Shown: positions 2,041-17,707 of the stretch, piece after piece
Layout of the letters: each line of letters opens with the position of its first letter
Position numbering within the stretch: the first letter of the stretch is position 1
NCBI GenBank assembly: GCA_964350935.1
Contig: CAYGLL010000003.1
Span: 1,487 to 65,486, forward strand
Source: an uncultured Candidatus Saccharibacteria bacterium
GTDB taxonomy: Bacteria > Patescibacteriota > Minisyncoccia > Phycocordibacterales > CAYGLL01
DNA: 64,000 nt
Reading direction: 5' to 3'
Notes under the pieces: generated by a model
Databases searched by the model: none
Told to the model about the DNA's origin: nothing
Seen by the model: only the letters and a program-made list of their open reading frames with translations
Translations under genes and position numbers: made by a program

Positions 2041-3339
2041 TTATTCCAGATCGTACACCCAGGCGGTCTGGTCGTTTTTATTTATGAACGCAAGATAGTT
2101 TTCAGCGGCATTGAGTTTAAGATCTACGGCATCAAAGGTTGTTTTTCCGAACGTCTCCAGGTCGGCGATGAGTTCTACCGCGCCTGTTTTACTATCGATT
2201 TTTACCAGCGTATCGTTAAAATTTATACCACCTTGGTACCACAGATCAGGATACTCTGCCGGAAAAAGATCCTTCGGCACCGCACAAAAGACAGCCGCTT
2301 CGATTCGGGACCAGGCGCACTTTTCAGGAAAGGTTTTAACATCAAGTTCAAATGACCCGCCAGTTTTTACATTATAGAGTGAGGTGACGATCTCACCATT
2401 ACTACTTCCTGAATAGAGTACGGTGTCCCCCGCCGGGTTGAGACTTGCCGTTAAACCACGGATGTTTCCGATAAGTTGCTGGAAAAGCGCTGTTTTGGTG
2501 TTGAGAGAGTAGAAGTAGCCATTCGTGTGCGCGGTCGCTTTGGTTTGGAGTGTCACTGTTGTTTCGTTTGGCCAGAGCGCGATCCATTCATCCGACGGAG
2601 AATCAAAGAGTGTTGTTTTTTTTGTGCCATCAGGATTTATCATGACGCCACTTGCACCGTTCCCGTGTGATACTAAATAGAAGAGCTTGTCGCCTTTAGG
2701 TGATGAGGTGATCGAGGTCACGTTTTGAGGAAGGAAGGTCGCTTCAAATTCGTGTGTGTCACTTTCGGCAACGGTTGAGGCGCCGATTCGACTTCCTGTG
2801 GTTGTGGTCATATCCATTGCCACCAGTTTTCCGTAAAAACCTTCAATTGTCGTACCATCGTCTTTCAGATATCGTACTGCAACACCTCTGCCCTGCTCTG
2901 CCCAGACGCCATCATAAACAACAGAACGAATGTCAGTGTTTAAGAGACGTTCCTGACGCTGATCGTCAGGTGATACCTCGTAAATGCGGGGAAGTGTTTT
3001 TCGTTCGATATAGCGGATTTTTGAAATATTTTCCCGATCGACGAACGTGATTCCCGCCACAGGTTCAACAGAAATTTTTTTCAACTTATTAGTTGATGTG
3101 GGGAGTTGTTGGTTCGGTGAAACACCAGGTGGTGGATTTTGTCCGGGGTTTGGGTTTGGAGAGCTAGGTGGCGGATTGTTGGGGAATGGAAAAAGATTTT
3201 GAGGTGTTCCTGATGGGGTTGGACTAATCTCAGGGTCTGTGCCGGTTTCGTTGTTGAGATAGAGATAGAAACCAACAAAAGCTCCGCCCAAGAGGAGAAT
3301 AAAGAGAACGATAATGATGGTGGTAAGTTTTCGTGACAT
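2041..3339 (-). CDS. secreted/membrane-anchored hypothetical protein with Pro-rich linker and beta-propeller-like domain
   Basis: N-terminal TM helix, a PPPSSPNPNPGQNPPPG linker and a 300-aa beta-rich C-terminus. It is the last gene of the minus-strand operon. Confidence 0.4.
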   Translation of the reverse strand: MSRKLTTIIIVLFILLLGGAFVGFYLYLNNETGTDPEISPTPSGTPQNLFPFPNNPPPSSPNPNPGQNPPPGVSPNQQLPTSTNKLKKISVEPVAGITFVDRENISKIRYIERKTLPRIYEVSPDDQRQERLLNTDIRSVVYDGVWAEQGRGVAVRYLKDDGTTIEGFYGKLVAMDMTTTTGSRIGASTVAESDTHEFEATFLPQNVTSITSSPKGDKLFYLVSHGNGASGVMINPDGTKKTTLFDSPSDEWIALWPNETTVTLQTKATAHTNGYFYSLNTKTALFQQLIGNIRGLTASLNPAGDTVLYSGSSNGEIVTSLYNVKTGGSFELDVKTFPEKCAWSRIEAAVFCAVPKDLFPAEYPDLWYQGGINFNDTLVKIDSKTGAVELIADLETFGKTTFDAVDLKLNAAENYLAFINKNDQTAWVYDLE

Positions 3340-3345
3340 AAATCT

Positions 3346-4029
3346 TTATCGAGGGGGTGGTGGTGCCGGTGGATTTCCCGACCAGTGGCAGCATACCTGG
3401 CCGGAAGTTATTCTGTGTCCTGGGGCTGGGTTCGGATTTTGTGTGCAGGCGTATCCTGGAGTAGAAATTGAGCTTACGAGAGTATAGTCGGGTCTTATTT
3501 CGCAACCAACGCTTGCAGACCGTTTGACATAAAGTTGGTTTCGTTCGCCGGCCGGTGGTGGCGGAGCAACGTTTCCTACTGGAGCGCCCGGTGTTATCAA
3601 CTGGAGATTAGTTACAAGGTCGGGGTTTAGGGTGTAGAGAATGAGATAGGAGAGAAAAGCAAGAAGAAGACCACCCAACGCATTCCAGATTCTCTTTTTT
3701 GCAGCTTCTTTACTGGTGATTGCTTCACTCACCATATATTCAATACCAGCATACGTTATGACAATAACGGCGAGGATTCCCGCAATCGCGATACCACCTT
3801 TGTAAGCTCCGGGGAGATAACGCTCGAGACGTGTATAGCAGTTAGTGCTGCGAGTTTGAGCGTTGGCCGCGCTACACGCTCCGTCAGTGGTTCCGGGAAT
3901 AGGTGCCATAGGAATGTAGTCTTCGAACGGTGGAATAATTTGTGCGTCTAGAGTGAGCGGTATGACGGAAGCCCAGAGAGTGATGGCGAGACAGGCTATT
4001 TTTGGCAGTAGTATAAAAATTTTTTTCAT
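3346..4029 (-). CDS. candidate VirB2/TrbC-like pilin (signal peptide + two hydrophobic helices, Cys/Pro-rich tail)
   Basis: Signal peptide MKKIFILLPKIACLAITLWASV followed by two TM segments (GGIAIAGILAVIVITYAG and GGLLLAFLSYLILYTL). It sits three genes below the VirB4-family ATPase. Confidence 0.35.
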   Translation of the reverse strand: MKKIFILLPKIACLAITLWASVIPLTLDAQIIPPFEDYIPMAPIPGTTDGACSAANAQTRSTNCYTRLERYLPGAYKGGIAIAGILAVIVITYAGIEYMVSEAITSKEAAKKRIWNALGGLLLAFLSYLILYTLNPDLVTNLQLITPGAPVGNVAPPPPAGERNQLYVKRSASVGCEIRPDYTLVSSISTPGYACTQNPNPAPGHRITSGQVCCHWSGNPPAPPPPR

Positions 4030-4037
4030 AACATTTG

Positions 4038-5042
4038 TTAACGAAGAGTGCCAAAACTAATATCAACTTTTGTTGAGGATGTATCGTAGGGTCTCAAGCT
4101 GTTTTTCGCAGATACACTGAGGCCGGTAACTTTTTTAACATCTTTATTTTTACGCATAAGCAGTGATTGTTTGTTCTCGTTTTCGGAAAGATTCTTACCG
4201 TCGATCTGCCAGGTATACCCTACTGAACTTAAAGGTTGCGAAAAAAAATAAGGGGTGGCTGCAACCATAAGATCGTTGCCCTCAGCAAGATATCCTCCAG
4301 CAAGAAAATGATTAGTCATGGTTCCGTAGAGTGGACTTTCCGGGTACAAAACAAGCTTAGGCGAGAGTGGTTCAAGATTCAGGAGTCCGCGCGCGGTCAT
4401 AGTCCCGTCAACCGACGAAACTTCAACGGTAATTCGTAATGCTGAGAATCGGCTTTCATCTTCGAGACGGAACGAATCTTTACCAAAACCCGATTGCTGG
4501 TCCATAACTTTAGTCCCCACTTTCCATTTATAGACCAGGTTCTTACTCGGGATTGCTTTTCCGTTTTGACCCACAAAATGAGGAAGAGCAAAGATGGTTG
4601 CAGAACTCTGGTTGGTGAAGAGCGCCTTGCCTTTGTAAAAGGGCGGTGTATAGGTATTTGCACGCCATGAAATTTCAACACCGGCCGGACGCAGGAACAC
4701 CGTTTTAGTAACATTGGTGCCGTCGGGAGCTTTAATAACAGCGCTCACTTCAAGCGCACTCCCCAATGCCCCGGTTCGGAAGCTTATCTTTTTTTCACCC
4801 ACACCACTCTTAGTGAGTTTCCCGTTCACATACCACGAGATCGTCGCAAAATTGAGATTGGTCGAGAACGTTTTTACTTCGGCGATCACTGTTTCGTTGG
4901 GACGGGGCGGGTCGGGACTAAATTGAATCTCATAAAAACTGTCCAAGAATGAAGATTGTTGCGCGTTAAGAGTTGCTGGAATAAGGATAAGCAGTAGCGC
5001 AGATACTACCCATACACACCTTGTAAAGACGGATTGTTTCAT
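4038..5042 (-). CDS. secreted hypothetical protein
   Basis: Cleavable-looking signal peptide followed by a beta-rich sequence, inside the T4SS-like operon. Confidence 0.4.
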   Translation of the reverse strand: MKQSVFTRCVWVVSALLLILIPATLNAQQSSFLDSFYEIQFSPDPPRPNETVIAEVKTFSTNLNFATISWYVNGKLTKSGVGEKKISFRTGALGSALEVSAVIKAPDGTNVTKTVFLRPAGVEISWRANTYTPPFYKGKALFTNQSSATIFALPHFVGQNGKAIPSKNLVYKWKVGTKVMDQQSGFGKDSFRLEDESRFSALRITVEVSSVDGTMTARGLLNLEPLSPKLVLYPESPLYGTMTNHFLAGGYLAEGNDLMVAATPYFFSQPLSSVGYTWQIDGKNLSENENKQSLLMRKNKDVKKVTGLSVSAKNSLRPYDTSSTKVDISFGTLR

Positions 5043-5094
5043 ACGTAAATAGTAGACCTATTTTACCATGCTCACCAAACTCACCTTACGCCAA

Positions 5095-6915
5095 TTATCC
5101 ACCGGCAGCCTCGTGTTCTGCTTTGGCTTTCTTAATCGAAAGAACCTGCGAAGGGTCTGAGGTGATGATTTGGTCTTCAGTGTAGGAGGCAATGATTTTG
5201 ATTGCTACGTGTTTGAGACCGACGAAGAACATGCCCTCCCCTACATCTGATTCAAGAAGCAGATATTTCTCTTCGTCGGTGAGATTAAATACTTGCTGCA
5301 GGCGATCAATCGAAGTCGGTGATTGTTTAAGGAGAATTTGGATTGAAGAGTTGGTGAGAATGGGAAGGCCGTAGGGGGATTTCAAAAAGTCATCAACGTC
5401 CTGGGTGATGGTTGCAAGGCCTAAGTAGTACTTGCGGCCGCGCTTCGCGAGTCCTAGAAGGAACGAGGCAGTATCATCGGAACGCATCATCCACCATGCC
5501 TCGTCGATAACCATCAGGCGCTTGCGTAAGTTTTTACGGATCGCGACCCAGATATAGTGTGTGACGATGTACATCGCAACCGGCTTCAGTTCGTCTTCCA
5601 TGTCGCGGAGCGAGAAGACAATGAACTTCGCGTTGATATCAACGTTTGAAGGCTGGTTCAGGAATCCTGACCATGTGCCGCGGGTATATTTTGAAAGTTT
5701 CTGAACCAGGACCTCAGCTCCTTCCATACCGGCCAAAACAAGTTCGAAGTCCGACATGAGGGGTGGTTCGGCATTGGTAAAATCACCGTCAGGTGTGATG
5801 TCTTTGAGTGCGTAGGTTTCTGTGATGGCACGGTCGATGATCGCATCCTCAGCAGGTGAAAGACCCCCGAGCATGATGCGGAAGAGGCCGACCAGCGTGA
5901 CGATGTTTGAACGCAACACATCTGAAGGGGACTCATCTTCGCGGATCATAGGAAGATCAAAAGGGTTGATGTGGTGTTCGGAGGTCAGTGAGATGTTGAA
6001 GTAGCGTCCTCCGACCGCCTCAGCCATGTATTCGTACTCGCGTTCAGGGTCGATAACAATAACTTCAGTATCGAACATGAGCGTGCGTAAAATTTCGAGT
6101 TTAGTCGTGTAGGATTTACCGGAACCAGATTTGGCAAAGGTGATCGAGTTGTAGTTCTCAAGACCGAATCGATCAAAGAGCACCAGTGATGAATTGTGAC
6201 GATTTATCCCGTAGAGAATTCCCTTGTCTGAGGTAAGGTCAAAGGAAACAAAGGGAAAGACACTCGACAATGGCGATGAGTTGAGTTTGGAGTGAACACC
6301 GAGTTCATCTGAGCAAATCGGTAGTGTTGAGCGAAAACCCTGCTCCTGCTGGAAGAGTGCCGGTTTGATATAGATGAGTTTCGATTCGAGGAGTGATTTT
6401 ACTTCGGACTCGATTTTATCAAGCTCTGCCTCATTATCTCCATAGATGGTGATGTAGAGTCCGACATCAAAGATCTTTTCCTGAGCCTGCTGGAGATCAT
6501 CGCGGAGTTTTTCAAGGTCCTGGTAGGCGGTATCGAGCATTGGGTCGCGCACCAACCCTTTTTCTTCTCGCATGTGAATCTGGCTTGAAACCTCGGCAAC
6601 TTTTTTCTGAAACTGTCGGAGTATTTGTGAGGTTTCAATAGGGTGAACAAAAATAGCGATATCAAATACTTTGTCGAGGTTGATGATTGGTGAAAACCAG
6701 CCTTCAGAAAGGAAGCGCGGGTATGACATAACAAAGAAGGTGCGGGCGATTTTTTCAGCGATGTGAAATTCGCGCGGAAGGATTTTGAGGGCTGAAGGAG
6801 CAATAATGTCTTTAAGTTCCAGGACGCCGGCCTCGTAAATTTCCTGCGGCAAAATTGCCGTGATCTGCGGCTTTTTCGACTGCGGTTTGAGGCCTAATTT
6901 TTCAAGTAATCCCAT
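5095..6915 (-). CDS. VirB4/TrbE/CagE-family conjugation-type ATPase, C-terminal two-thirds
   Basis: Walker A FAKSGSGKSYTT and Walker B VIDEAWWMM, typical VirB4 motifs. There is no N-terminal domain and the ORF starts right after the IR element. Confidence 0.8.
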   Translation of the reverse strand: MGLLEKLGLKPQSKKPQITAILPQEIYEAGVLELKDIIAPSALKILPREFHIAEKIARTFFVMSYPRFLSEGWFSPIINLDKVFDIAIFVHPIETSQILRQFQKKVAEVSSQIHMREEKGLVRDPMLDTAYQDLEKLRDDLQQAQEKIFDVGLYITIYGDNEAELDKIESEVKSLLESKLIYIKPALFQQEQGFRSTLPICSDELGVHSKLNSSPLSSVFPFVSFDLTSDKGILYGINRHNSSLVLFDRFGLENYNSITFAKSGSGKSYTTKLEILRTLMFDTEVIVIDPEREYEYMAEAVGGRYFNISLTSEHHINPFDLPMIREDESPSDVLRSNIVTLVGLFRIMLGGLSPAEDAIIDRAITETYALKDITPDGDFTNAEPPLMSDFELVLAGMEGAEVLVQKLSKYTRGTWSGFLNQPSNVDINAKFIVFSLRDMEDELKPVAMYIVTHYIWVAIRKNLRKRLMVIDEAWWMMRSDDTASFLLGLAKRGRKYYLGLATITQDVDDFLKSPYGLPILTNSSIQILLKQSPTSIDRLQQVFNLTDEEKYLLLESDVGEGMFFVGLKHVAIKIIASYTEDQIITSDPSQVLSIKKAKAEHEAAGG

Positions 6916-6924
6916 TTTATATAT

Positions 6925-7015
6925 GAATTATGAAGCAGGAATTATGAATTAAGAAAAGAGATTTCTTTTTGGTCAGATTCTTTTTCATTATTCTTAATTC
7001 GTTATTCATAATTCT
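6925..7015. mobile_element. MITE-like inverted-repeat element (GAATTATGAA...TTCATAATTC ends) splitting VirB4
   Basis: Left arm gaattatgaagcaggaattatgaattaagaa and right arm ttcttaattcgttattcataattc are reverse complements. The 103-bp block sits exactly between the VirB4 N- and C-terminal ORFs. Confidence 0.45.
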
Positions 7016-7018
7016 TTT

Positions 7019-7663
7019 TTAGTTTAGTTGAATCGGTTTCTCAATATCGCCGGGATTGAATATTTTGTAGTAGAGCTCGATGATCTCTTCGGTCCCCAGT
7101 TGTACGACCCTGATACCGCAGCGGATCAATCCCTGTTCAATAATGGAGAGGCGCTGTTCAAGTTGTGCCCGATTTTCTTCGAAATTTTCTTCTTTATCCC
7201 GCACCAGCTCGTCTTTAGTGCGGCTTCCGCCCATGCCCGGGATCCCACCAAGACCCTTTTTTCCACCCATCGCGGTTGGTGAGAAGGGCACCACAACGAA
7301 AAACGTTTTAGTCATGATACTTGTGCTTTCGGTGAATGTTTTTACGAATTCAATGTATTCGCGCGTCTGAATTTTCATCAGCTCATCCTCCTGATTCTTG
7401 TAGCGATCTTCGAGAAGCGCAAGGTATGGCCGAATATCCAGGCGTCGTGACTGAACGAATATTTGAATCGAAAAATCAAGCGAGTTTAAAAAGTTTTGAA
7501 ACTGAATAATGATTGCCTGCTGATTTTCTTCTGACTTGAGCGCAAAGTTCAGGGACGAGGTCATGGCAATACCGCGCAGCCCCCCGTCTTTCAGGATAAC
7601 TACACCATCACGTATCTCTTTGATGGGAACGAATTCCTGTGCAGCTTTTGATTTGATGGCCAT
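7019..7663 (-). CDS. VirB4-family ATPase, N-terminal domain fragment
   Basis: MAIKSKAAQEFVPIKEIRDGVVILKDGGLRGIAMTSSLNFALKSEENQQAIIIQF... matches the N-terminal domain pattern of Gram-positive VirB4 homologues. The track's TTG start at 7723 reads through the repeat, so the start is taken at MAIKSK. Confidence 0.6.
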   Translation of the reverse strand: MAIKSKAAQEFVPIKEIRDGVVILKDGGLRGIAMTSSLNFALKSEENQQAIIIQFQNFLNSLDFSIQIFVQSRRLDIRPYLALLEDRYKNQEDELMKIQTREYIEFVKTFTESTSIMTKTFFVVVPFSPTAMGGKKGLGGIPGMGGSRTKDELVRDKEENFEENRAQLEQRLSIIEQGLIRCGIRVVQLGTEEIIELYYKIFNPGDIEKPIQLN

Positions 7664-7679
7664 AAATAAGTGGAAGGAA

Positions 7680-7830
7680 GAATTATGAATTATGAAGTAT
7701 GAGGGAAGGTATACAGTATACAACGCGATGAGCTAAAAGATGCGATCCAGTTTCTTTCTCTCGGCTGTAAAATACATTCTTTTTTCTTAATTCTGTATTC
7801 ATAATTCTTAATTCATTACTCGCAATTCAT
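7680..7830. mobile_element. second copy of the inverted-repeat element (no cargo)
   Basis: gaattatgaattatgaag at 7680 and cttaattctgtattcataattcttaattcat at 7786-7830 are inverted copies of the locus A arms. Confidence 0.4.
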
Positions 7831-8275
7831 CCCTCCGCCCGTGGCGCACATCCTCGTCTTCAGTAACGGGATTCAGACTCTCTTTGATGTCGAGACTCCA
7901 GGTGAGGTCTTTGAGTTTTGAAGCAGAAAGCTTTGGTACATAGATCGGTTGCTGTTTCTTTTCCTCTTCAGCAGCTTCGGTAACCAGTTTTGGTTTAGGA
8001 TCAATTTTTTTCCAAGTATAGAGGCGGTCCCCGATGTAATATTTGAAGGCAGATTCCATAACATTAATGAATGCGCGGCCGTGTACTTTGTAGAATGCGA
8101 GTGCGAGTGAAACACCAACAACAGGAATGATAAAGATAATTCCCCACCACTTAAGGAATGACCAGATGACGAAGGCAAGGCCACCTCCGCCAATCAGAAA
8201 GACGAACTGTTTGAAGGTGAACGGTCCGAAGATTTTGTCTTCGACGCCTGTAAATTGTGGGACTTGAAAACGCAT
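7808..8275 (-). CDS. PrgI/VirB3-like small membrane protein
   Basis: N-terminal FTGVEDKIFGPFTFKQFVFLIGGG followed by two TM helices, adjacent to the VirB4 N-terminal ORF. Confidence 0.5.
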   Translation of the reverse strand: MRFQVPQFTGVEDKIFGPFTFKQFVFLIGGGGLAFVIWSFLKWWGIIFIIPVVGVSLALAFYKVHGRAFINVMESAFKYYIGDRLYTWKKIDPKPKLVTEAAEEEKKQQPIYVPKLSASKLKDLTWSLDIKESLNPVTEDEDVRHGRRDELRVMN

Positions 8276-8285
8276 GACAACGAAA

Positions 8286-8716
8286 GAATTATGAAGTGTG
8301 AATTACGAATTACGAATAAACTCTTTTGATTTTTTAATTAAACCGTTACAAAGCTTGCTCACCGTGATTGTGTGTTGTTCGGTTTCCATACATTCTTCAG
8401 AAGTTACATATCCAAGGTCTTTTGCGATAATTAATTGATTTTGTATCTCGGTAAGAGATCCGAGCGATATGTAATAGAATTTTACCTTTTCTTTAAATGA
8501 CTCTCTACTAAATCCTTCAGCGATGTTTGAAGTTATCGAGACGACCGCCCTTCTCATCTGGTTTACGAGCCCGAACTGCTCATCCTTAGGAAATTTTTTT
8601 GTTAGTTGGTAGATGGCAATAACGAGTACATGCCCTTCTTTCCACACATTCAAATCGGTAAATGACGATATTTTTTTCTGTCCGATTTCATTATTCATAA
8701 TTCTAAATTCATTCTT
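8286..8716. mobile_element. inverted-repeat element copy carrying a four-helix-bundle protein gene
   Basis: gaattatgaagtgtgaattacgaattacgaataa (8286-8320) and cattattcataattctaaattcattcttcg (8688-8716) flank ORF 8303-8698. The cargo start codon lies inside the GAATTATGAA motif. Confidence 0.45.
8303..8698 (-). CDS. four-helix-bundle protein (23S rRNA intervening-sequence protein family)
   Basis: DLNVWKEGHVLVIAIYQLTKKFPKDEQFGLVNQMRRAVVSITSNIAEGFSRES...LGSLTEIQNQLIIAKDLGY is the typical signature of this family. Confidence 0.75.
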   Translation of the reverse strand: MNNEIGQKKISSFTDLNVWKEGHVLVIAIYQLTKKFPKDEQFGLVNQMRRAVVSITSNIAEGFSRESFKEKVKFYYISLGSLTEIQNQLIIAKDLGYVTSEECMETEQHTITVSKLCNGLIKKSKEFIRNS

Positions 8717-8717
8717 C

Positions 8718-8740
8718 GTTGAGTAGTTTTGCTACTCAAC
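8718..8740 (-). terminator. perfect 9-bp hairpin overlapping the stop of ORF 8732-9781
   Basis: gttgagtag-ttttg-ctactcaac. Confidence 0.35.
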
Positions 8741-9781
8741 TGGTTCTCTGTACGGATCGGTTGAATATTTCTTTTCTTCACGCAGAGCAGCGGTGGTCGA
8801 AGTAAGTTTTTGCTCGACGATACCTTTTTCGGTTGGTGTTAGCGGTTTGCCCGGAGTTCCAAAGGGGGTGATGCTCGGTTGCCAGACTGGGCGTTGCGGT
8901 GGCGCAGGTCTTGCCGGCGGCGGGGGTGGTGGAGTTAAGGATGTTATGGGTTTTTCAACAGTACGTTGAGGTGGTTGAGGGGGCAGTGCTTGCAGTGCAG
9001 GAGGTGTGGGGGTTGAAGCCGGAGGAGTGAATACGGGAGGTTTCGGCGCCGGAGCTTCCATACGGGGTTTGGTCGGAATTACAGCTGCAAGAGGTGGCTT
9101 CGTCTGAACCTGAGGTGCGGGTGGAGTTTTTTCGGGAGTGTTTTGAGGAGGCCGCTGAAACTGTTGCCACATCGTTCCGGAATTGTTCGAAGAAACAGTG
9201 CCTGAAGGAAGGTTCGGAGGAGCGCTCGCGGGAGGTTTTGGTGCTGGAGGCGTAAAAGCAGTTTTCTGCGGTGGGAGTGAAAATCGTTTAGGCGCAGTAA
9301 ATGGAGAAGGTGGAGCTTGAGGAGGCGCAGTGGGCGGCGGCATAGCTTTAGATGGCGGTATGAACCCGTTTGGCATTAGGGGGTTGCTACGCGGAGAAGG
9401 TGGCGGCGCAAATGTTCGTCGGTTGAGAATAACTTCAGGTGGGGCAGCGTCTGCAGTTTCTTGAGGATGAACCTGTTTCAGTGCCTCACGTATCTCAAGA
9501 AAAACCTTTTGGTTTACCTCAGTCGCAATAAGATTTGCTTTGTCCGTTGGAATGCCAAGCGACTTGTGGACATTCTCAACAAATGAGTTTGGTCGCTCAA
9601 GGCCGATCATCACAAACATTGCCTCATTAGAGAGATTAGTCTGTTGTTCTTCGGAGAGAAGGAATTTTTCGGCGATGGTCGCGACTTTGCTTGGGTAATC
9701 AGAGGAAAGAATGACATTTTGAATGTCTTTGGGAAGCGCCTCAAATCGTTCCAGTATTTCTTTTTTAGTTTCTTCGTCCAT
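8732..9781 (-). CDS. hypothetical protein with ~110-aa N-terminal domain and long proline-rich low-complexity tail
   Basis: About 200 aa of PPxP repeats, possibly a cell-envelope-spanning linker, within the T4SS-like operon. Confidence 0.4.
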   Translation of the reverse strand: MDEETKKEILERFEALPKDIQNVILSSDYPSKVATIAEKFLLSEEQQTNLSNEAMFVMIGLERPNSFVENVHKSLGIPTDKANLIATEVNQKVFLEIREALKQVHPQETADAAPPEVILNRRTFAPPPSPRSNPLMPNGFIPPSKAMPPPTAPPQAPPSPFTAPKRFSLPPQKTAFTPPAPKPPASAPPNLPSGTVSSNNSGTMWQQFQRPPQNTPEKTPPAPQVQTKPPLAAVIPTKPRMEAPAPKPPVFTPPASTPTPPALQALPPQPPQRTVEKPITSLTPPPPPPARPAPPQRPVWQPSITPFGTPGKPLTPTEKGIVEQKLTSTTAALREEKKYSTDPYREPVE

Positions 9782-9787
9782 TAGTTT

Positions 9788-12337
9788 TTATTTTTTATCC
9801 CCTCCTTCTTTTTTGTCTTTTTTATCCTTCTTTTTTCCCTCCCCCTCATCATCTTCGTCAGGCTCCTTAAAGTCCTCACCGTATTTTTTCTTATGCCACT
9901 TTTTGAACATTTTCTCGAAGTCCTTACTCATACCCACTTCATCGTCATCTTCGTCATCGTCCGCTTTTTTCCCAGCTGACTTTCTGATTTTTTCGGCAAT
10001 TTTCCTGTTACCTTCTGTATCGCGGAAGCGATTACGCCAGAAAGAATCAGTTCTGCTTTTTTCCTCGAACGACTTAATGACGGATTCTTTCTGACCCTCG
10101 GCCGTTCTTAAGGTCGTTTTGGTCAGATCGTCATAGTTGCTTTCAGTGACCCCTTTCTTGTTTAAGTATTCCTGCACATCTTTGTAATCTTCAAGTTCTT
10201 TTTCTCCGTCCTTCAGCTGTTCTTTGTTTTTATCGAGCCACTCTTTTGATTTTTGTATGCGCTCGTTCGATTGTTGTATACGTGCCTCCGCCTCGCGTTT
10301 TATCTGTGTATCGCCTACTTGGTTTTTTGATATTTCCTCGTCTGCTTCAATTTGCTTTTTATCTACGTCTATTTGGTTTTGTACCACAGCTCCTTCTTTC
10401 ACGAGGGCTTCAAGGTCAGTCGTAGCTTTCTTGAAGGATTGAACAAAGTTTTTCTCAATTTCCTGAGTAACGGTTTCAGTGTTTTTCTTAATCTCATTAT
10501 TAATGCGCTCAATCGCTTTACCAAAGTTTGTTACTTTATTTTCTGCCTCACTCATTTCGCGATCAGTGTTTTGAATCTTTGTCTCTGCAGCAGCCATCTT
10601 TTGTTGGGCCTCATCATGTTGGGTCTGTGATGTTGCAGTCGTAATGGCTTTTGCGGCATCATCTTTGTCCTTCATTGCCTGCGCTCTTTGCTTAGTCAGA
10701 CTCTCTACCATTGCTTTTGCTTCACCAAGTTGTGTGGTCGTTGTCTTCTTCTCGTCCTCGAGTGGTTTATTACGCACGCTCGCGGTTTCGGTAATCATTT
10801 TGTTGCGAGCTTCCACAACTGTTTCACGCGTATCTTTTTCATCCTTTGCTTTCTTTGCGACAATATCACCAAACTTTTGTTCCTTTTTAACGCGGTCTTC
10901 CTGACGTTTATTAAACGACGTGGTTACAATACCTTCAGCTCCAAACATAGAGAGCGGACTCTTTTTACCCAACCCGGCTTTATCAGCAAGTTTCTGGAAG
11001 CCTTTATTCTCTCTGATATCAAAGCCGGCCTTTGAAACGCGGTCAGTTCCGGTGATAGTGCGTTTCGCAGCCCAGCGTCCAATAGCAGTCTTTCCAAGCA
11101 GTCCTTCTCCGCCCGCGATGCTATGAATTTTGCCACCAAGTGCTCCTTGTCCGGAAACCACTCCTGAAGCAACACGGCCGAGCGCCACTCTTCCAGCCGC
11201 CGCGGCTCCTCCCGTTGCAACTCCTAATGCGACCGTTCCCACAGCAGCCGCAACCGCCGCTCCGATTTTTTGCGCGAGCGAACCGAACTCGCCACCTAAC
11301 TCTTTTGTTTTTCTGACGACGAAAACGAGAAGACCGATCGCAATGATGTAGTTGAGGTAAAATGTTGGGTCGAGATCGCCGCCAGGAATAACTGAACTTC
11401 CCACAATGCTGGCGAAACCATCAATGACAGTAACGGCCAAGTAGTAGAGAACCATAAAGACCGGAGCAACGAGTGTTTGATCCCAGAGCTGTTTCCACCA
11501 CCAGTTTGATGCGCCTTTCGCGCCCGGAATAACATTCCCCACAAAACCAATCGGGGAAAGCATGAGAACAAAGGTGAGGCCGATAATTCTTCCCACAAAT
11601 ACTAAAACCACTGAGCAGAAAACATAGATGGCAACGCCAATGAGGAGCGCGCGCGCAATACTAATGAGGTATTTGGAGGTGCCGCTTAAGTTGTCTTCCG
11701 GTCGTTGGCCGGCAGTTGCCTGTGGGGCTACGCTGCCAGTTGCACGTGTTGGGTCGTATGTTCGAACAACGTCGGTTCTTTTAATGAAGTCTTCACTGAG
11801 CGATCGTGTGCCTCTACTCGTTATGGCACTGTAAAATCCATGTGCAACGATGTTTCCTGCATCAATAATAACTTTCGTAAAAAAGAGACTGAAGTTGATG
11901 AGGAGGATCGCGATGACCACCTTGGGGAGGTATGTTTTTGCCTGGTAGGAGCCTTCCTGAAGAATGGTTGAGATCGCGACGTAGATGAGAATAAAAATGA
12001 AGCTCATATTGATGAGATCGCGAACAATTTTCCACCCCACATTGATGCCCGCGATGCTGTTTAAAACAGCCGAGTTGAGGTTCAGTTTAATGACCGCATC
12101 GAGCACCAAACCGATGATGCCGAGAATGATGCCCATGACTGGCAAGATTATAAATTCAAAAAGAGCGTTATATACCTCACCCACGCAGTCGGCCAGACTA
12201 AAGTTAAAGAGTGAAATACAGGCCGCGCTCGCTTGTTGCGGAACAAAAATCACCACCAGAAGAACGCAGAGTGAAAGAATCGCGAACAGTTTCCGGTATT
12301 TTGGTGTCACTCTTTTTTTTCTAAAAAAGTTTATCAT
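9788..12337 (-). CDS. VirB6/TrbL-like polytopic membrane protein with long charged coiled-coil C-terminus
   Basis: Signal peptide, then at least six TM helices over ~350 aa. A K/E/D-rich coiled-coil/low-complexity tail follows (EKELEDYKD...KKDKKDKKEGGDKK). Confidence 0.45.
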   Translation of the reverse strand: MINFFRKKRVTPKYRKLFAILSLCVLLVVIFVPQQASAACISLFNFSLADCVGEVYNALFEFIILPVMGIILGIIGLVLDAVIKLNLNSAVLNSIAGINVGWKIVRDLINMSFIFILIYVAISTILQEGSYQAKTYLPKVVIAILLINFSLFFTKVIIDAGNIVAHGFYSAITSRGTRSLSEDFIKRTDVVRTYDPTRATGSVAPQATAGQRPEDNLSGTSKYLISIARALLIGVAIYVFCSVVLVFVGRIIGLTFVLMLSPIGFVGNVIPGAKGASNWWWKQLWDQTLVAPVFMVLYYLAVTVIDGFASIVGSSVIPGGDLDPTFYLNYIIAIGLLVFVVRKTKELGGEFGSLAQKIGAAVAAAVGTVALGVATGGAAAAGRVALGRVASGVVSGQGALGGKIHSIAGGEGLLGKTAIGRWAAKRTITGTDRVSKAGFDIRENKGFQKLADKAGLGKKSPLSMFGAEGIVTTSFNKRQEDRVKKEQKFGDIVAKKAKDEKDTRETVVEARNKMITETASVRNKPLEDEKKTTTTQLGEAKAMVESLTKQRAQAMKDKDDAAKAITTATSQTQHDEAQQKMAAAETKIQNTDREMSEAENKVTNFGKAIERINNEIKKNTETVTQEIEKNFVQSFKKATTDLEALVKEGAVVQNQIDVDKKQIEADEEISKNQVGDTQIKREAEARIQQSNERIQKSKEWLDKNKEQLKDGEKELEDYKDVQEYLNKKGVTESNYDDLTKTTLRTAEGQKESVIKSFEEKSRTDSFWRNRFRDTEGNRKIAEKIRKSAGKKADDDEDDDEVGMSKDFEKMFKKWHKKKYGEDFKEPDEDDEGEGKKKDKKDKKEGGDKK

Positions 12338-14343
12338 GGCACAACAAGTGTTCCCTGGTTAATGACGGTACCGTTAATTACACCGCCTCTGATCACGTCT
12401 GCTTCACCCGTGGTGAAGCCTGAAGAGATAAGCCCGCCGGTTGAAACGATGCCACCTATGAGCGGGATTACGTCAGCAACTGTCCCGCCGTCGTAGGTAC
12501 AGAAGCAGTTGTTGTCGAAATAATTGTTTGCCACTGTCCAACTTGCGAGTGAAGTACCGCTCAAAAGTGTTCCCCCGGTTATTACCGTACCCCCATTGAT
12601 TTGCCCTGTTTCAATGTGAATGACATTTATGGTTGTTCCGGCGCGATAGACAACTGGCGCAGTACTTCCATTGTCAGTATAGGTGGTGTTTGGCGCGAGG
12701 TGGGCGCTTGGCGGATACACCAGTGTTCCGCTTAGCTGTCCGCCGACAAGATTGATCGGGGTTATATTTCCAATAATCTGTGCACCGGTTATTTCTGCGC
12801 CGATAATTGAACCCACAGTCTGACTTACCGAGCCGCGGGTATCAACACCGTTTGCCCATGCTCCGGTAGTAAGACCGAGCGCATCATCGGCGGTAATAAT
12901 TCCACTCGAACTTCGGATCGGTGATGTTGCACTAAACATAATGCCGTCAACGGTTTGTGTGGCAATGTTGATCGTACGAACCGCTGTTGCACATCCGGCG
13001 GGATGACAAAGATACACGGTGCCGGCACGGGCGATCATTGAACCAGTGCTTTGTACTATGGCAGATGATGCTGCGCGTATACGAAGCCCCGTTCCTACAG
13101 GGGTAAACCTCATGTTAGTAACATTGACGTTTCTCAAGGTTCCATTGATGTCAGCCCCGACCAAGTGAAGGCCGAATGCTGTTGTTGAGGTTGCGGGGCC
13201 GCCACCAATTGGTGTCGATGTGCCAATCACGGGTGGTGTAGGGGTTGCGATAATGAAATCCGGAAGAGGTGGTGGCGGATCAATGTCAGGGCCGGTAAGA
13301 GTGCCGCCGGCGCGAGTGCCAATGATAGTATCGTCAAAAGCAGCCTGTGCCGAATTACGCGTGTTTCCAGTTGTCGCTCCAGCCAACCCGTTAAGCGCGG
13401 TGCTCAAGAGCTGATTCATAAGTGCGCCGATGATTTCGTTGATTTCGTCAGCAACTTCAAGGCGGCGCTTACCACTATCTAAGCTGTCGTTGATTTGAGT
13501 TTCTACAACAGATCCAGGAGTAACCGTTTCTGAGTAGTACGCTGTTGAGCAGTCACTCGTTTCGTTGCCGGACGTGTCATAACATTTTTCTTGTGAGAGA
13601 AACCCCCTTCCCCAACTTAACTGCTTGTCTTTGAGTATTGTTTTGTTTGCAATACGGAGTCCCGCTTCCGCTTGAGCAATAGTGAACGCACCATACATAT
13701 TGTTTTGCGGTCTGCCGGTCATTGATATCCAACTATCCCATCCGTTTGCACTCGTACGATTGAAAACGTCTTGAGTGTTTTGGATTACCCGTGAGAGCGT
13801 ACAGCCGTTGCGTTGTTTGAAACGACCCGTCGCTAAGTTGAGTTCAAGTGCAAGGGCAAAATTAATATCAAACTGATTACACAAAAATCCAAAATCAGAA
13901 CTCGCAATAAATGCACCGATCTCATGATCGGCAAGGTCGGTAAAGAATGCTCCCGGGTCCTGGATAAATCCCGGTCCGCCCTGAAAACCACCCTGGATCC
14001 ATTGCACGATGCTGTCTCCAATGTAGGAAATAAGCGTGTTCAGGACGGCAAAAGCGATACCGTCGAGAATATTTTCTTTGGTTTCCAAAGACTGAGAAAC
14101 ACGCGCCATGAGTGTAGTATTTTGTTGCACGACGCGCATGGTGTTTACCGCCTGCTGAAGTCCCTGCTGAGTGATGCGTTGTAACTGAAGATCGTTCACA
14201 GGAACTGTTGCTCCTTGTGCAGATGCGGTCGAAATTTCAAGAAAGGGTGTTGCTATCAGAGCAAGAATACCCACGATACTAAAAAAAGTTCTCGATGTGA
14301 GAAAAAAATTGAAGAAAGCAAAAGTGACGTGGCTTTTCCTCAT
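12334..14343 (-). CDS. large secreted Gly/Thr-rich hypothetical protein (beta-helix-like repeats)
   Basis: Signal peptide, and a C-terminal half with GGT/ING repeats. It overlaps the start of the VirB6-like gene by 4 bp. Confidence 0.4.
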   Translation of the reverse strand: MRKSHVTFAFFNFFLTSRTFFSIVGILALIATPFLEISTASAQGATVPVNDLQLQRITQQGLQQAVNTMRVVQQNTTLMARVSQSLETKENILDGIAFAVLNTLISYIGDSIVQWIQGGFQGGPGFIQDPGAFFTDLADHEIGAFIASSDFGFLCNQFDINFALALELNLATGRFKQRNGCTLSRVIQNTQDVFNRTSANGWDSWISMTGRPQNNMYGAFTIAQAEAGLRIANKTILKDKQLSWGRGFLSQEKCYDTSGNETSDCSTAYYSETVTPGSVVETQINDSLDSGKRRLEVADEINEIIGALMNQLLSTALNGLAGATTGNTRNSAQAAFDDTIIGTRAGGTLTGPDIDPPPPLPDFIIATPTPPVIGTSTPIGGGPATSTTAFGLHLVGADINGTLRNVNVTNMRFTPVGTGLRIRAASSAIVQSTGSMIARAGTVYLCHPAGCATAVRTINIATQTVDGIMFSATSPIRSSSGIITADDALGLTTGAWANGVDTRGSVSQTVGSIIGAEITGAQIIGNITPINLVGGQLSGTLVYPPSAHLAPNTTYTDNGSTAPVVYRAGTTINVIHIETGQINGGTVITGGTLLSGTSLASWTVANNYFDNNCFCTYDGGTVADVIPLIGGIVSTGGLISSGFTTGEADVIRGGVINGTVINQGTLVVP

Positions 14344-14457
14344 ATATCAAGCATATTTTAACACACGAGGTGTGCTAAACCCTTGTTAAAACTGTGAATT
14401 GGCGCGCTAAAATTACGGGCAACGCAGAATGATTTTGCCCTCGGATAGACATCACTT

Positions 14458-15480
14458 CTACTGCTTAATAGTCGGCGGTGTCGGATACAGGAGCGGATAG
14501 GCCGCTTCATCTTTTTCAAACACAATGCGATGACCTTCGAAGTATAAGACGAGTCCGTCGAATGCAGTAGTTAGCTGATCGATTGCCAGTTTGTACTGCC
14601 CGATTCCTACAATAGTCACCACAGGGTCGTCATAGATTTTTGTGAAGGTTTCAATGACGCTTCCTACACGACTTAGGGCATTAATCAGTTTGAGGTGAGC
14701 TTGGGCGGCACTTTGAGGGACCTTGAGTTTAAGTGAGTCGGCAACTATTTTTTGGTACGCAGCCGCCATGGTGGCTAACTGGGAGGGTATTTCAGGATTT
14801 TTAGTGTCCACAGCATCGGCGAGAAGTATTATTTCGTGTTGAATGTTGGGCGGCGAATCATTTTGGTGAATTTCACCCAATTTGTTGCCAAAAGCCTTCA
14901 AACTGGTGATTGACTCATCTGGCATCGTTAAAATATCGCTTAATGAATAGACTTTTGCGTTAAGTTCACCTTGTTCGGTATTGACAACCTCCTTTATTAT
15001 AGTTTCAGTTTCTTCCGATGAGAGCTTTTTGCCTGAATTTTTAGCATCAAGAAGCTCGGTGTATGACTTACGAGCAAGTTTTTGCGTTGCAGTAAGGCCG
15101 TTTTCTTGGTCTACCAGTGCGTCTGCCTTAAGTGTGTCATCGGGGCCCTTAATTCGAGGATCACGATTTTGAGCCGTTTCTTCGCCGTCGAGCGTTCCAT
15201 CCCCGTCAGTATCTGGGTTTTTAAGCTCGGTTTTCCAGAGTTTTTCCTCCCAATCCTTAAGACCGTCGTCATCTGAGTCAATTTCAGTCACCTTTTTTAT
15301 GAGAGGGTTTTCGGCAAAAGTCTCGTTTTCCGAGCTTTTATTTGAAGCAGAGTATTCAATGTTGTCACCACTGTCTCGCTGAAAGAAATACGCACCCAAA
15401 ATGATGGAAACGCAGATGATAAGGAGTGCGATATTTTTTTTACTGAGAGTTTTCATAGCAAATTCACAGAACACCATCAT
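14458..15480 (-). CDS. membrane-anchored protein with thrombospondin-type-3-like Ca-binding repeats
   Basis: DSDDDGLKDWEE and DTDGDGTLDGEE DxDxDG-type motifs, with an N-terminal TM helix. Confidence 0.35.
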   Translation of the reverse strand: MMVFCEFAMKTLSKKNIALLIICVSIILGAYFFQRDSGDNIEYSASNKSSENETFAENPLIKKVTEIDSDDDGLKDWEEKLWKTELKNPDTDGDGTLDGEETAQNRDPRIKGPDDTLKADALVDQENGLTATQKLARKSYTELLDAKNSGKKLSSEETETIIKEVVNTEQGELNAKVYSLSDILTMPDESITSLKAFGNKLGEIHQNDSPPNIQHEIILLADAVDTKNPEIPSQLATMAAAYQKIVADSLKLKVPQSAAQAHLKLINALSRVGSVIETFTKIYDDPVVTIVGIGQYKLAIDQLTTAFDGLVLYFEGHRIVFEKDEAAYPLLYPTPPTIKQ

Positions 15481-17680: not shown

Positions 17681-17707
17681 CAGTTGATAGTACTTGATTT
17701 GTTTTTT

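What the first reader, a model, noticed from the sequence alone, without database searches (positions are those of the whole stretch)
2041..15480. 13-kb minus-strand operon encoding a Gram-positive/CPR-style T4SS-like apparatus without relaxase or coupling protein
Eleven tightly packed or overlapping minus-strand genes make up the operon:
- a VirB2/TrbC-like candidate pilin (signal peptide plus two hydrophobic helices)
- a VirB4-family ATPase with Walker A/B motifs, split in two
- a PrgI/VirB3-like two-TM protein
- a long proline-rich protein
- an 849-aa VirB6-like polytopic membrane protein with a long K/E/D-rich coiled-coil tail
- two large secreted Gly/Thr-rich or beta-rich proteins
- a protein with thrombospondin-type-3-like DxDxDG calcium-binding repeats
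- a propeller-like secreted protein

No VirD4, relaxase or oriT is apparent. This suggests a non-conjugative surface appendage or host-interaction machine rather than a plasmid transfer system. The secreted components are unannotatable from sequence and are the likely novel parts.
Basis: partly seen in the sequence, partly recalled or inferred. Interest (0 to 1): 0.65.

Follow-up and report, generated by a model that had tools for sequence, protein, structure and literature searches.

The report
Chromosomal Patescibacteria-type type IV secretion operon
This is the origin-proximal, non-conjugative type IV secretion gene cluster that nearly all Paceibacteria (ultrasmall CPR bacteria) carry; it is real and well conserved, but the system was already described in 2023-2025, so only its unannotated exported accessory proteins are new ground.

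Summary
Window 2041-15480 carries eleven tightly packed minus-strand ORFs.

Homology supports five T4SS parts:
- a VirB4 ATPase (CD1110 family, above the curated cut-off);
- a separate TrsD-like VirB4 N-terminal piece;
- PrgI/VirB3;
- a polytopic VirB6-like protein;
- a VirB2-like pilin.

The VirB4 "split" is not a lesion: 79 of 80 related species loci have the same ~212 aa + ~604 aa pair. The whole order uvrD-ksgA-[cluster]-jag-yidC-rnpA recurs across Paceibacteria. No relaxase or coupling protein lies in the 64 kb, so this is not an ICE.

The system is already published (Wang 2023; Quinonero-Coronel 2025), including missing relaxase, TrsD, pilins and the rnpA/ksgA/rpmH neighbourhood. I file it as a new member of a known kind.

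What I add:
- Four N-terminally anchored exported proteins and a Pro-rich protein form a conserved, fast-evolving Paceibacteria module.
- One of them (334 aa) is a confident three-Ig-domain protein, with 2,350 clusters of relatives at 50% identity.
- The 669-aa protein is a weak VirB5/TrbJ-like candidate.
- The eleventh gene is not a T4SS part. It is a 23S-rRNA-IVS-type four-helix-bundle element, with two ORF-less hairpin copies in neighbouring spacers.

The parts
14458..15480 (-). g1, 340 aa. N-terminal membrane anchor, then bacterial TSP3-type DxDxDG calcium-binding repeats, then a helical domain. The true start is probably the internal Met at about 15456.
   Evidence: One search gives the sequence and one N-terminal hydrophobic segment. 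Weak TSP3-protein hits appear. The orthologue profile hits the Ca-binding region of Bap at 9e-5. TSP3_bac is found in 14 members of the mixed set of accessory orthologues, inferred to be g1 orthologues. Homologues occur in 45 of 80 related loci at the same position.
12334..14343 (-). g2, 669 aa. Signal peptide, a conserved ~330-aa mainly helical N-domain with conserved Cys/Trp/Gly, and a variable Gly/Thr-rich beta-rich C-region. It overlaps the g3 start by 4 nt. It is a candidate VirB5/TrbJ-like tip or adhesin protein (a lead only).
   Evidence: Sequence and alignment are. No Pfam or PDB sequence match was found. The AF2 model failed at pLDDT 41. Two homologues hit DUF4141 right after the signal peptide, at 2.3e-6 and 1.3e-5, both below the cut-off. 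One orthologue hits TrbJ at E 0.017. Within the mixed set of accessory orthologues a few members carry F5/8-type-C or Ig-like domains, which I infer sit in g2 C-regions; Bact_surface_Ig-like is shown directly at residues 530-567 of a g2 homologue. A direct test against R751 TrbJ was not significant.
9788..12337 (-). g3, 849 aa. VirB6-like polytopic membrane protein ('extended VirB6') with a ~470-aa K/E/D-rich coiled-coil tail, inferred to be cytoplasmic.
   Evidence: One search finds 8 hydrophobic segments. 5 of 31 orthologues hit Pfam TrbL/VirB6, best 1.6e-4; the window protein itself does not. Motifs NFS, SP and WW are conserved in the membrane part. Homologues occur in 59 loci.
8732..9781 (-). 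g4, 349 aa, with no signal peptide or TM segment. Conserved ~100-aa helical N-domain, a 21.5% proline linker, and an invariant C-terminal DPYRE motif. Role unknown.
   Evidence: No Pfam or PDB match was found. It was detected in about half of the related loci.
8276..8731 (-). IVS-type element carrying g5 (ORF 8303-8698, 131 aa, four-helix-bundle '23S rRNA intervening sequence protein'). It is bounded by inverted arms of tandem ~7-nt units (GAATTAT/GAATTAA). It is not a T4SS component.
   Evidence: PF05635 scores 1e-37 and TIGR02436 5e-36. The arms contain the ORF's start and stop codons and pair in the MFE fold. The gene sits in different spacers in different species, with genome-specific covarying arms. 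The architecture matches the Coxiella IVS (PMC4990558).
7808..8275 (-). g6, 155 aa, PrgI/VirB3-type small membrane protein.
   Evidence: PF12666 gives 1.9e-8 at 35.2 bits, above the gathering score of 27. flags three overlapping hydrophobic windows between residues 19 and 65, which I read as two TM helices. Homologues occur in 77 of 80 loci at about 52% identity.
7676..7815 (-). ORF-less hairpin with the same heptamer arms as the g5 element, in the g6-g7 spacer.
   Evidence: Pattern hits are. MFE is -30.8 kcal/mol with z -3.8.
7019..7723 (-). g7, TrsD-like protein equivalent to the N-terminal domain of VirB4, encoded as its own gene. The likely true start is the ATG at 7663, giving 214 aa.
   Evidence: NCBIfam VirB4_plasma N-region scores 1e-9, TrsD 1.8e-5, and CD1110 positions 2-112 score 2e-5. 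Homologues occur in 79 of 80 loci with a median length of 212 aa and 62% identity.
6916..7018 (-). ORF-less hairpin with the same heptamer arms, in the g7-g8 spacer.
   Evidence: MFE is -22.8 kcal/mol with z -6.4.
5095..6915 (-). g8, 606 aa, VirB4-family ATPase (C-terminal two thirds including the P-loop domain).
   Evidence: CD1110 family scores 363 bits against a cut-off of 325 and covers model positions 185-733. P-loop_TraG, AAA_10 and DUF87 also hit. More than 586 relatives at about 80% identity are all Patescibacteria MAGs. The best plasmid relatives are monoderm CD1110-type at 36% identity or less.
4038..5042 (-). g9, 334 aa. N-terminal signal/anchor helix followed by three tandem Ig-like beta-sandwich domains. 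A uniform, widespread family without a Pfam entry.
   Evidence: The AF2 model has pLDDT 93.3 and pTM 0.82. Foldseek against PDB returns only generic multi-Ig proteins (Hoc, NCAM, SbsB, GhpA) with TM 0.2-0.3. There are 2,350 clusters at 50% identity with E<=1e-30, all about 335 aa and full length. Homologues occur in 72 of 80 loci.
3346..4029 (-). g10, 227 aa. VirB2-like T4SS pilin: signal peptide, two hydrophobic helices joined by a basic loop, then a ~90-aa Pro/Cys-rich C-terminal extension. It is the only pilin gene in the window.
   Evidence: PF18895 gives 0.0016, below the gathering score, and Mbov_0395 pilin-like gives 3e-4. 40 of 41 orthologues hit PF18895, best 2e-11. An HMM of the family finds no second copy in the window.
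2041..3339 (-). g11, 432 aa. N-terminal anchor, Pro-rich linker, and a beta-rich domain that may be a TolB-like propeller. It has a conserved Cys pair and a WYxG motif.
   Evidence: TolB propeller similarity is E 0.012 and DUF5050 is E 0.043. 51 homologues are all unnamed. Homologues occur in 56 loci.

Best explanation
This is the Paceibacteria version of the chromosomal 'Patescibacteria-clade' type IV secretion system, which descends from monoderm (MPF-FATA) conjugation machinery.

Shown by homology and conservation:
- A membrane translocon is made of a VirB6-like polytopic protein (g3), PrgI/VirB3 (g6) and a VirB4 ATPase encoded as two polypeptides (TrsD-like g7 plus g8).
- There is a VirB2-like pilin (g10).
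- The cluster is vertically inherited at a fixed site beside rpmH-rnpA-yidC-jag and ksgA-uvrD.
- It has no relaxase, coupling protein or integrase next to it.

Inferred:
- VirB4 powers assembly of a pilus or tube of g10 subunits through the cell wall.
- The four N-terminally anchored exported proteins (g1 Ca-binding, g2 helical plus variable lectin/Ig-like C-region, g9 three Ig domains, g11 propeller-like) form the extracellular stalk and host-contact part. These proteins evolve much faster than the motor.

Favoured but unproven function: contact with the host cell and passage of macromolecules between host and symbiont, not plasmid transfer. I lean towards uptake from the host, because the export receptor (T4CP) is not part of the conserved cluster.
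For: - Family hits.
- More than 586 VirB4 relatives, all in Patescibacteria MAGs at about 80% identity. The nearest plasmid VirB4s are Firmicutes/Actinobacteria CD1110-type at 36% or less.
- The gene order uvrD-ksgA-g1-g2-g3-(g4)-g6-g7-g8-g9-g10-g11-(jag)-yidC-rnpA recurs in dozens of species loci.
- VirB4 is more conserved (80%) than the flanking housekeeping genes: yidC 47%, ksgA 52%, uvrD 56%.
- Flanks are housekeeping: rpmH 290-424, rnpA, yidC, jag, ksgA, uvrD.
- No relaxase or T4CP family was found in the window.
- Literature: the same system is essential for epibiotic growth in Southlakia (PMC10633639) and is surveyed phylum-wide (PMC12102498). Tubular host connections, possibly T4SS pili, were seen in a cultured Microgenomatia parasite (bioRxiv 10.64898/2026.06.21.733656).
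Against: - Function is inferred from homology only; no experiment exists for any Paceibacteria system.
- The window's own VirB6-like and pilin proteins are below family thresholds and are assigned through their orthologues.
- No VirB8-like or VirB1-like part was identified in the cluster.
- The pilin carries an unusual 90-aa C-terminal extension, so it may not polymerise like VirB2.
- A T4CP could be encoded elsewhere in the genome; most Patescibacteria have one. That weakens the argument for import over export.
- The g2 structure prediction failed.
Confidence: 0.8

Rival explanations
1. It is the mating-pair-formation module of an integrated conjugative element or plasmid remnant that transfers DNA.
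For: VirB4 belongs to the CD1110 family named for a conjugative transposon. The nearest non-CPR relatives sit on plasmids that are mostly typed as conjugative.
Against: - No relaxase, T4CP, integrase or repeats border the cluster.
- It lies between rnpA-yidC-jag and ksgA-uvrD at the same place in dozens of species.
- Its composition matches the surrounding DNA.
- VirB4 is 80% identical across species, while the nearest plasmid VirB4s are 36% or less.
- The published survey finds relaxases in only 103 of 3,035 genomes.
Confidence: 0.03
2. It is an effector or protein export machine that injects proteins into the host cell, as pathogen T4SSs do. The substrate receptor would be encoded elsewhere.
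For: VirD4-like genes exist in most Patescibacteria genomes away from virB4. Reviews speculate on effector delivery. g4 is a soluble Pro-rich protein with an invariant C-terminal DPYRE motif, which could be read as a secretion signal.
Against: The T4CP homologue is not essential in Southlakia, whereas the T4SS genes are. No candidate effector with a known toxic or enzymatic domain lies in the cluster. The cluster itself has no T4CP in 80 related loci by gene order.
Confidence: 0.25
3. The cluster is decaying: the split VirB4 and inserted elements mark a pseudogenised relic.
For: VirB4 is in two ORFs in different frames, 103 nt apart. An unrelated gene and two hairpin elements are inserted among the core genes.
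Against: The same two-ORF arrangement occurs in 79 of 80 loci with conserved lengths, and also in Southlakia as SEML1_0009 plus SEML1_0008, both essential. All eleven ORFs are intact. g8 is 80% and g7 62% identical across species. The insertions are confined to spacers.
Confidence: 0.02

Closest known systems
Patescibacteria-clade T4SS (Quinonero-Coronel et al. 2025, PMC12102498; Southlakia epibionticum SEML1_0006-0019, Wang et al. 2023, PMC10633639)
   Same: VirB4 with a separate TrsD-like gene, PrgI/VirB3, extended VirB6 and a PF18895 VirB2-like pilin. No relaxase or T4CP in the cluster. Chromosomal site next to rnpA, rpmH and ksgA, as reported for Paceibacteria.
   Different: There is one pilin gene with a C-terminal extension, not the 6-gene pilin array of Southlakia. 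No NTF2/VirB8-like gene and no adjacent lysozyme or peptidase is present. The Paceibacteria-specific exported set (g1, g2, g9, g11) and g4 are unannotated in the published work.
Monoderm MPF-FATA conjugative T4SSs (CTn2 CD1110 of Clostridioides, pGO1 TrsC/TrsD/TrsE, pCF10 PrgH/PrgI/PrgJ)
   Same: VirB4 is of the CD1110 type, above the curated cut-off. A TrsD-like partner, PrgI and a VirB6-like polytopic protein are present.
   Different: There is no relaxase, T4CP, VirB1-type hydrolase or VirB8-like protein in the cluster. A VirB2-like pilin is present, which Gram-positive systems lack. The cluster is fixed in the chromosome. Identity to plasmid VirB4s is 36% or less.
Mycoplasma ICE transfer genes (Mbov_0395 pilin-like, Mbov_0396 TM protein, Mbov_0397 VirB4)
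   Same: Weak profile matches: g10 to Mbov_0395 (3e-4), g8 to Mbov_0397 (257 bits) and g7 to its N-region (1e-9). This is another wall-reduced monoderm lineage with a pilin-like protein next to VirB4.
   Different: All scores are far below the equivalog cut-offs (590 for VirB4_plasma). The Mycoplasma genes are on a mobile ICE with its own DDE recombinase.
T4CP-less uptake systems (Helicobacter ComB; archaeal Ced)
   Same: A VirB4/HerA-type ATPase with a membrane pore and pilin, without a relaxase. These import rather than export DNA, which is the functional analogy I favour.
   Different: CedB and CedD profiles match only weakly (28.9 and 14 bits against cut-offs of 700 and 600). ComB needs diderm parts VirB7-10. 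There is no evidence here for DNA as the substrate.
23S rRNA intervening sequence with S23p ORF (Coxiella burnetii IVS, PMC4990558). This applies to g5 only.
   Same: A ~430-456-nt unit with a PF05635 four-helix-bundle ORF, tandem heptamer repeats before the start codon, and terminal inverted repeats forming a long stem.
   Different: It sits in spacers of a protein-coding operon and not in helix 45 of 23S rRNA. ORF-less copies lie in neighbouring spacers.

Membership tests
Patescibacteria-clade chromosomal T4SS | VirB4 ATPase of MPF-FATA affinity whose nearest relatives are Patescibacteria | tested here: met
   CD1110 family scores 363 bits against a cut-off of 325. The 80 best of more than 586 relatives are all Patescibacteria MAGs at 76-83% identity. 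Plasmid relatives are at 36% or less. No tree was built.
Patescibacteria-clade chromosomal T4SS | TrsD-like (VirB4 N-terminal) gene next to virB4 | tested here: met
   g7 hits the VirB4_plasma N-region at 1e-9 and TrsD at 1.8e-5, both below curated cut-offs. It is adjacent to g8 and conserved in 79 of 80 loci.
Patescibacteria-clade chromosomal T4SS | PrgI/VirB3 homologue near virB4 | tested here: met
   PF12666 scores 35.2 bits against a gathering score of 27.
Patescibacteria-clade chromosomal T4SS | VirB6-like polytopic membrane protein | tested here: inconclusive
   There are 8 hydrophobic segments. The window protein has no TrbL hit. 5 of 31 orthologues hit PF04610, best 1.6e-4. hhalign against a single R751 TrbL sequence had no power.
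Patescibacteria-clade chromosomal T4SS | VirB2-like pilin (PF18895) near virB4 | tested here: met
   The window protein scores 18.9 bits against 26.6. 40 of 41 positional orthologues hit PF18895, best 2e-11.
Patescibacteria-clade chromosomal T4SS | No relaxase and no T4CP in the cluster; chromosomal site near rnpA/rpmH/ksgA | tested here: met
   The whole genome was not available, so a distal T4CP cannot be excluded.
Conjugative ICE/plasmid T4SS | Relaxase, coupling protein, oriT, and integrase or element borders | tested here: not met
   None was found in the 64 kb. The nearest tyrosine recombinase (34912-35871) is 19 kb away, beyond housekeeping genes. oriT cannot be tested by sequence alone.
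VirB5/TrbJ minor pilin family (for g2) | Significant profile match to VirB5/TrbJ/TraC, or a three-helix-bundle fold | tested here: inconclusive
   Support is limited to DUF4141 hits in 2 homologues (2.3e-6 and 1.3e-5, below the cut-off of 30 bits) and one TrbJ hit at E 0.017. No PDB VirB5/TraC match was found. The g2 N-terminal HMM against R751 TrbJ gave E 1.6, within noise. The AF2 model was unusable.
Archaeal Ced DNA-import system | CedB/CedA family proteins | tested here: not met
   CedB scores 28.9 bits against a cut-off of 700 and CedD 14 against 600. No CedA-like hit was found.
23S-rRNA-type IVS element (for g5) | PF05635 ORF inside a stem formed by terminal inverted repeats with tandem heptamers | tested here: met
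   See, compared with PMC4990558. The usual location in rRNA is not met. RNase III cleavage cannot be tested with these tools.

The most novel reading that the evidence does not exclude
The fast-evolving exported set conserved in Paceibacteria (g1, g2, g9, g11) is a lineage-specific extracellular module of the first pilus-bearing monoderm T4SS. In this reading g2 is a VirB5-like tip protein whose swappable lectin/Ig-type C-region sets host specificity. The IVS-type hairpins in the g4|g6|g7|g8 spacers are RNase III sites that cut the operon mRNA and tune the stoichiometry of VirB6, VirB3, TrsD and VirB4.
Probability: 0.2. Interest if true: 0.6.

Novelty: new member of a known kind. Interest (0 to 1): 0.3.

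Why it matters
Patescibacteria make up a large share of bacterial diversity and live on other cells. Their T4SS is the only T4SS known to be essential for growth, and reviews state that its function is unknown.

This locus adds nothing new about the core machine. It does define the full conserved Paceibacteria gene set, including five unannotated proteins that any structural or genetic study of the machine in this class would have to account for. It also gives one confident fold (g9), one testable tip-protein candidate (g2), and an unexpected RNA-level feature within the operon.

Tried and rejected
- Structure prediction of g2 with a 21-sequence alignment gave pLDDT 41 and pTM 0.22. I did not use it for fold search.
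- Foldseek of the good g9 model against PDB returned only generic multi-Ig proteins with TM 0.2-0.3. No T4SS part such as VirB8/PrgL matched.
- Profile searches of g1, g2, g3, g4, g9 and g11 orthologue alignments against PDB sequences gave nothing significant except Ca-binding repeats for g1.
- hhalign of the g2, g3 and g10 profiles against single R751 TrbJ, TrbL and TrbC sequences found nothing. The expected positives also failed, so that test has no power.
- A g2 N-terminal HMM ranked R751 TrbJ at E 1.6 among other signal-peptide proteins.
- Promoter and terminator scans matched shuffled expectation.
- Rfam found only four tRNAs.
- The pseudogene and ICE readings were rejected on conservation and context.
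- I could not identify the source genome by name. The g2 and g9 proteins (and, over 78% of its length, g11) are present at 100% identity in public collections, g2 and g9 on a contig of up to 80,412 bp.

Full report
**1. What is there**

Window 2041-15480 holds eleven intact minus-strand ORFs with spacers from -4 to 114 nt. I number them g1 to g11 in transcription order.

| Gene | Coordinates | Length |
|---|---|---|
| g1 | 14458-15480 | 340 aa |
| g2 | 12334-14343 | 669 aa |
| g3 | 9788-12337 | 849 aa |
| g4 | 8732-9781 | 349 aa |
| g5 | 8303-8698 | 131 aa |
| g6 | 7808-8275 | 155 aa |
| g7 | 7019-7723 (likely start 7663) | 234 aa ORF (214 aa from 7663) |
| g8 | 5095-6915 | 606 aa |
| g9 | 4038-5042 | 334 aa |
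| g10 | 3346-4029 | 227 aa |
| g11 | 2041-3339 | 432 aa |

Base composition does not differ from the flanks.

**2. Core T4SS parts**

- **g8** is a VirB4-family ATPase. NCBIfam 'VirB4-like conjugal transfer ATPase, CD1110 family' scores 363 bits against a curated cut-off of 325 and covers model positions 185-733. Pfam P-loop_TraG, AAA_10 and DUF87 also hit. Walker A is AKSGSGKS and Walker B is VIDEAW.
- **g7** matches the N-terminal part of VirB4 models (Mbov_0397 family positions 100-233 at 1e-9; CD1110 positions 2-112) and TrsD (1.8e-5). Together g7 and g8 make one VirB4 encoded in two genes.
- **g6** is a PrgI-family (VirB3-like) protein above Pfam's gathering score.
- **g10** has a signal peptide and two hydrophobic helices joined by a basic loop. 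It hits T4SS_pilin PF18895 only weakly, but 40 of its 41 positional orthologues hit that family, best 2e-11.
- **g3** has eight hydrophobic segments and a ~470-aa charged coiled-coil tail. The window protein hits nothing, but 5 of 31 orthologues hit TrbL/VirB6. I treat the VirB6 assignment as likely, not proven.

**3. Context and conservation**

- *Left flank:* rpmH (290-424), rnpA, yidC and jag/KhpB lie to the left.
- *Right flank:* a divergent secreted PG-binding protein, then ksgA, uvrD/pcrA and an M23/LysM peptidase lie to the right.
- *Rest of the window:* none of the larger ORFs is a relaxase or VirD4-type ATPase. The nearest tyrosine recombinase is 19 kb away.
- *Relatives:* a scan of one genome per species found more than 586 relatives of g8. 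The best 80 are all Patescibacteria MAGs (Taylorbacteria, Zambryskibacteria, Kaiserbacteria, Campbellbacteria and others) at 76-83% amino-acid identity.
- *Gene order:* in those loci the order uvrD-ksgA-g1-g2-g3-(g4)-g6-g7-g8-g9-g10-g11-(jag)-yidC-rnpA recurs again and again.
- *VirB4 split:* the g7/g8 split (about 212 aa + 604 aa) is present in 79 of 80 loci. The split is therefore the native form and not a lesion.
- *Conservation of the motor:* median identity is 80% for g8, 62% for g7 and 52% for g6, against 47-56% for yidC, ksgA and uvrD. The motor is more constrained than its housekeeping neighbours.
- *Conservation of the accessory proteins:* they are only 25-38% identical.
- *Plasmid relatives:* the closest plasmid-borne VirB4s are Actinobacteria/Firmicutes CD1110-type proteins at 36% or less.
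- *Conclusion:* together this rules out an ICE or a decaying relic.

**4. The system is already described**

- Wang et al. 2023 (PMC10633639) showed that the homologous cluster of Southlakia epibionticum is essential for epibiotic growth. That cluster comprises SEML1_0008 (VirB4), 0009 (which Quinonero-Coronel et al. identify as the TrsD homologue), 0010 (PrgI), 0011/0013 (VirB6-like) and 0014-0019 (pilins). The paper noted the lack of relaxase and coupling protein.
- Quinonero-Coronel et al. 2025 (PMC12102498) surveyed 3,035 genomes. They defined a monophyletic Patescibacteria VirB4 clade nested in MPF-FATA and reported TrsD, VirB3, VirB6 and VirB2-like genes near virB4. Relaxases occurred in only 103 genomes and T4CP genes were mostly far from virB4. 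For Paceibacteria they reported the neighbourhood of dnaA/dnaN, rnpA, ksgA and rpmH.
- A 2025 review (PMC12857230) calls these systems newcomers to the superfamily, of unknown function and possibly pilus-forming.

**5. Accessory proteins, where something can be added**

- **g9.** With 120 homologues, AlphaFold2 gives a confident model (pLDDT 93.3, pTM 0.82) of an N-terminal helix followed by three tandem Ig-like sandwiches. Foldseek finds only generic multi-Ig surface proteins. A profile search of 1.84 billion cluster representatives finds 2,350 relatives at E<=1e-30, all about 335 aa and aligned end to end. This is a large, uniform family without a Pfam entry.
- **g2.** It has a conserved ~330-aa N-domain and a variable Gly/Thr-rich C-region. 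In the mixed set of accessory orthologues a few members carry discoidin (F5/8 type C) or Ig-like domains, which I attribute to g2 C-regions; one g2 homologue shows Bact_surface_Ig-like at residues 530-567. Its structure prediction failed.
- **g2 as a VirB5/TrbJ candidate.** The mature N-termini of family members (VPVND..., WVVFDPGNF..., GVGDVVTDPGN...) resemble the start of R751 TrbJ (GIPVIDGTNLSQN). Two homologues hit DUF4141 at that spot, and one orthologue hits TrbJ at E 0.017. A direct HMM test against TrbJ was not significant. 'VirB5-like tip protein' is therefore a lead at perhaps 30-40%.
- **g1.** It has bacterial TSP3-type calcium-binding repeats.
- **g11.** It is anchored, has a Pro-rich linker, and shows only weak TolB/DUF5050 propeller similarity.
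- **g4.** It has no export signal. It has a conserved helical N-domain, a proline-rich linker, and an invariant C-terminal DPYRE motif, with no known relative.
- **Not found.** No VirB8-like or VirB1-like gene was recognised inside the cluster.

**6. The eleventh gene**

- *What g5 is.* It is a PF05635 four-helix-bundle '23S rRNA intervening sequence protein' (1e-37). Inverted arms built of tandem ~7-nt units enclose it, and those arms contain its start and stop codons.
- *ORF-less copies.* Two hairpins with the same arms fill the g6-g7 and g7-g8 spacers (z -3.8 and -6.4). Of 13 matches to the arm pattern in 64 kb, 12 lie in 6925-8703, against 1.6 expected.
- *Related species.* The gene sits in other spacers (g6/g7, g7/g8, g2/g3) and always has genome-specific heptamer arms that stay complementary. 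ORF-less heptamer hairpins occupy the same slots elsewhere, for example L071 at z -13. Of 37 spacers tested, 19 have z < -3.
- *Closest known element.* The architecture matches the Coxiella 23S rRNA IVS, which has an S23p ORF, heptamer repeats and a terminal stem and is excised by RNase III (PMC4990558).
- *What differs here.* The element sits in an mRNA operon. Processing of the transcript by RNase III is a plausible consequence that has not been tested.

**7. Mechanism**

*Shown:* identity of the core parts, vertical inheritance at a fixed origin-proximal site, strong constraint on the ATPase, and lack of conjugation genes nearby.

*Inferred:*
- g3, g6, g7 and g8 form the membrane translocon.
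- g10 polymerises into a pilus or tube.
- g1, g2, g9 and g11 build the wall-spanning and host-contact parts.

*Favoured function:* contact-dependent passage of macromolecules between host and symbiont. I lean towards uptake from the host for two reasons. The conserved cluster lacks the export receptor. T4CP-less relatives such as ComB and Ced import. A distal T4CP cannot be excluded, so effector export remains a serious rival.

**8. Verdict**

This is a real, well-conserved, correctly interpreted locus of a published kind. Interest is modest (0.3) and rests on the unannotated accessory module and the IVS-type elements, not on the T4SS itself.

Noticed in passing
window 8276-8731, 7676-7815, 6916-7018 (minus strand); also L015, L018, L071, L076 and others: A 23S-rRNA-IVS-type element (PF05635 four-helix-bundle ORF inside a stem of tandem heptamer repeats) and two ORF-less hairpin copies sit in spacers of the T4SS operon. 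In related species the ORF occupies other spacers, with genome-specific covarying arms, and ORF-less heptamer hairpins fill the same slots. 12 of 13 arm-pattern hits in the 64 kb lie inside the operon.
   Followed up: partly
window 5095-6915 compared with 814-1539, 16802-17827 and 18391-20331, across L001-L080: The VirB4 ATPase is about 80% identical across Paceibacteria species. The neighbouring housekeeping genes are less conserved (yidC 47%, ksgA 52%, uvrD 56%), so the motor is under unusually strong constraint.
   Followed up: partly
window 8732-9781 (g4), C-terminus: The Pro-rich protein ends in an invariant D-P-Y-R-E motif across 21 orthologues, although its linker is highly variable. 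This may be a docking or recognition motif.
   Followed up: no
window 3346-4029 (g10) and orthologues in L-loci: The VirB2-like pilin carries a C-terminal extension that varies from about 0 to 350 aa between species. Single orthologues show CHAP, 3D, Peptidase_M15_4 or He_PIG domains after the pilin domain, that is, a pilin fused to cell-wall hydrolase or Ig modules.
   Followed up: no
window 12334-14343 (g2), residues about 43-60: The mature N-terminus (VPVNDLQLQ...) and those of its homologues (WVVFDPGNF, GVGDVVTDPGN) resemble the start of TrbJ/VirB5-type proteins (R751 TrbJ GIPVIDGTNLSQN). The statistical tests were not significant.
   Followed up: yes
window 15493-16821 (+): A divergently oriented secreted protein has a PG_binding_1 domain, a TIG/Ig domain and a Gly-rich C-domain. 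Its called start lies only 12 nt from that of g1, so one or both starts are probably internal. It is present in only a few related loci.
   Followed up: no
window 32439-44400: A GC-rich stretch (0.55 against about 0.46) holds a 395-aa ORF with no family. It is followed by a NYN-domain gene, a XerC/D-type recombinase (34912-35871), and an AT-rich stretch (0.41-0.43) with four tRNA genes and three TrmB-like regulators. This may be an island or a variable region.
   Followed up: no
window 28918-31065: Polynucleotide phosphorylase is encoded 13 kb from the cluster. A 2026 preprint links PNPase and VirB4 to host-RNA feeding in this phylum. Only co-occurrence was noted here.
   Followed up: no
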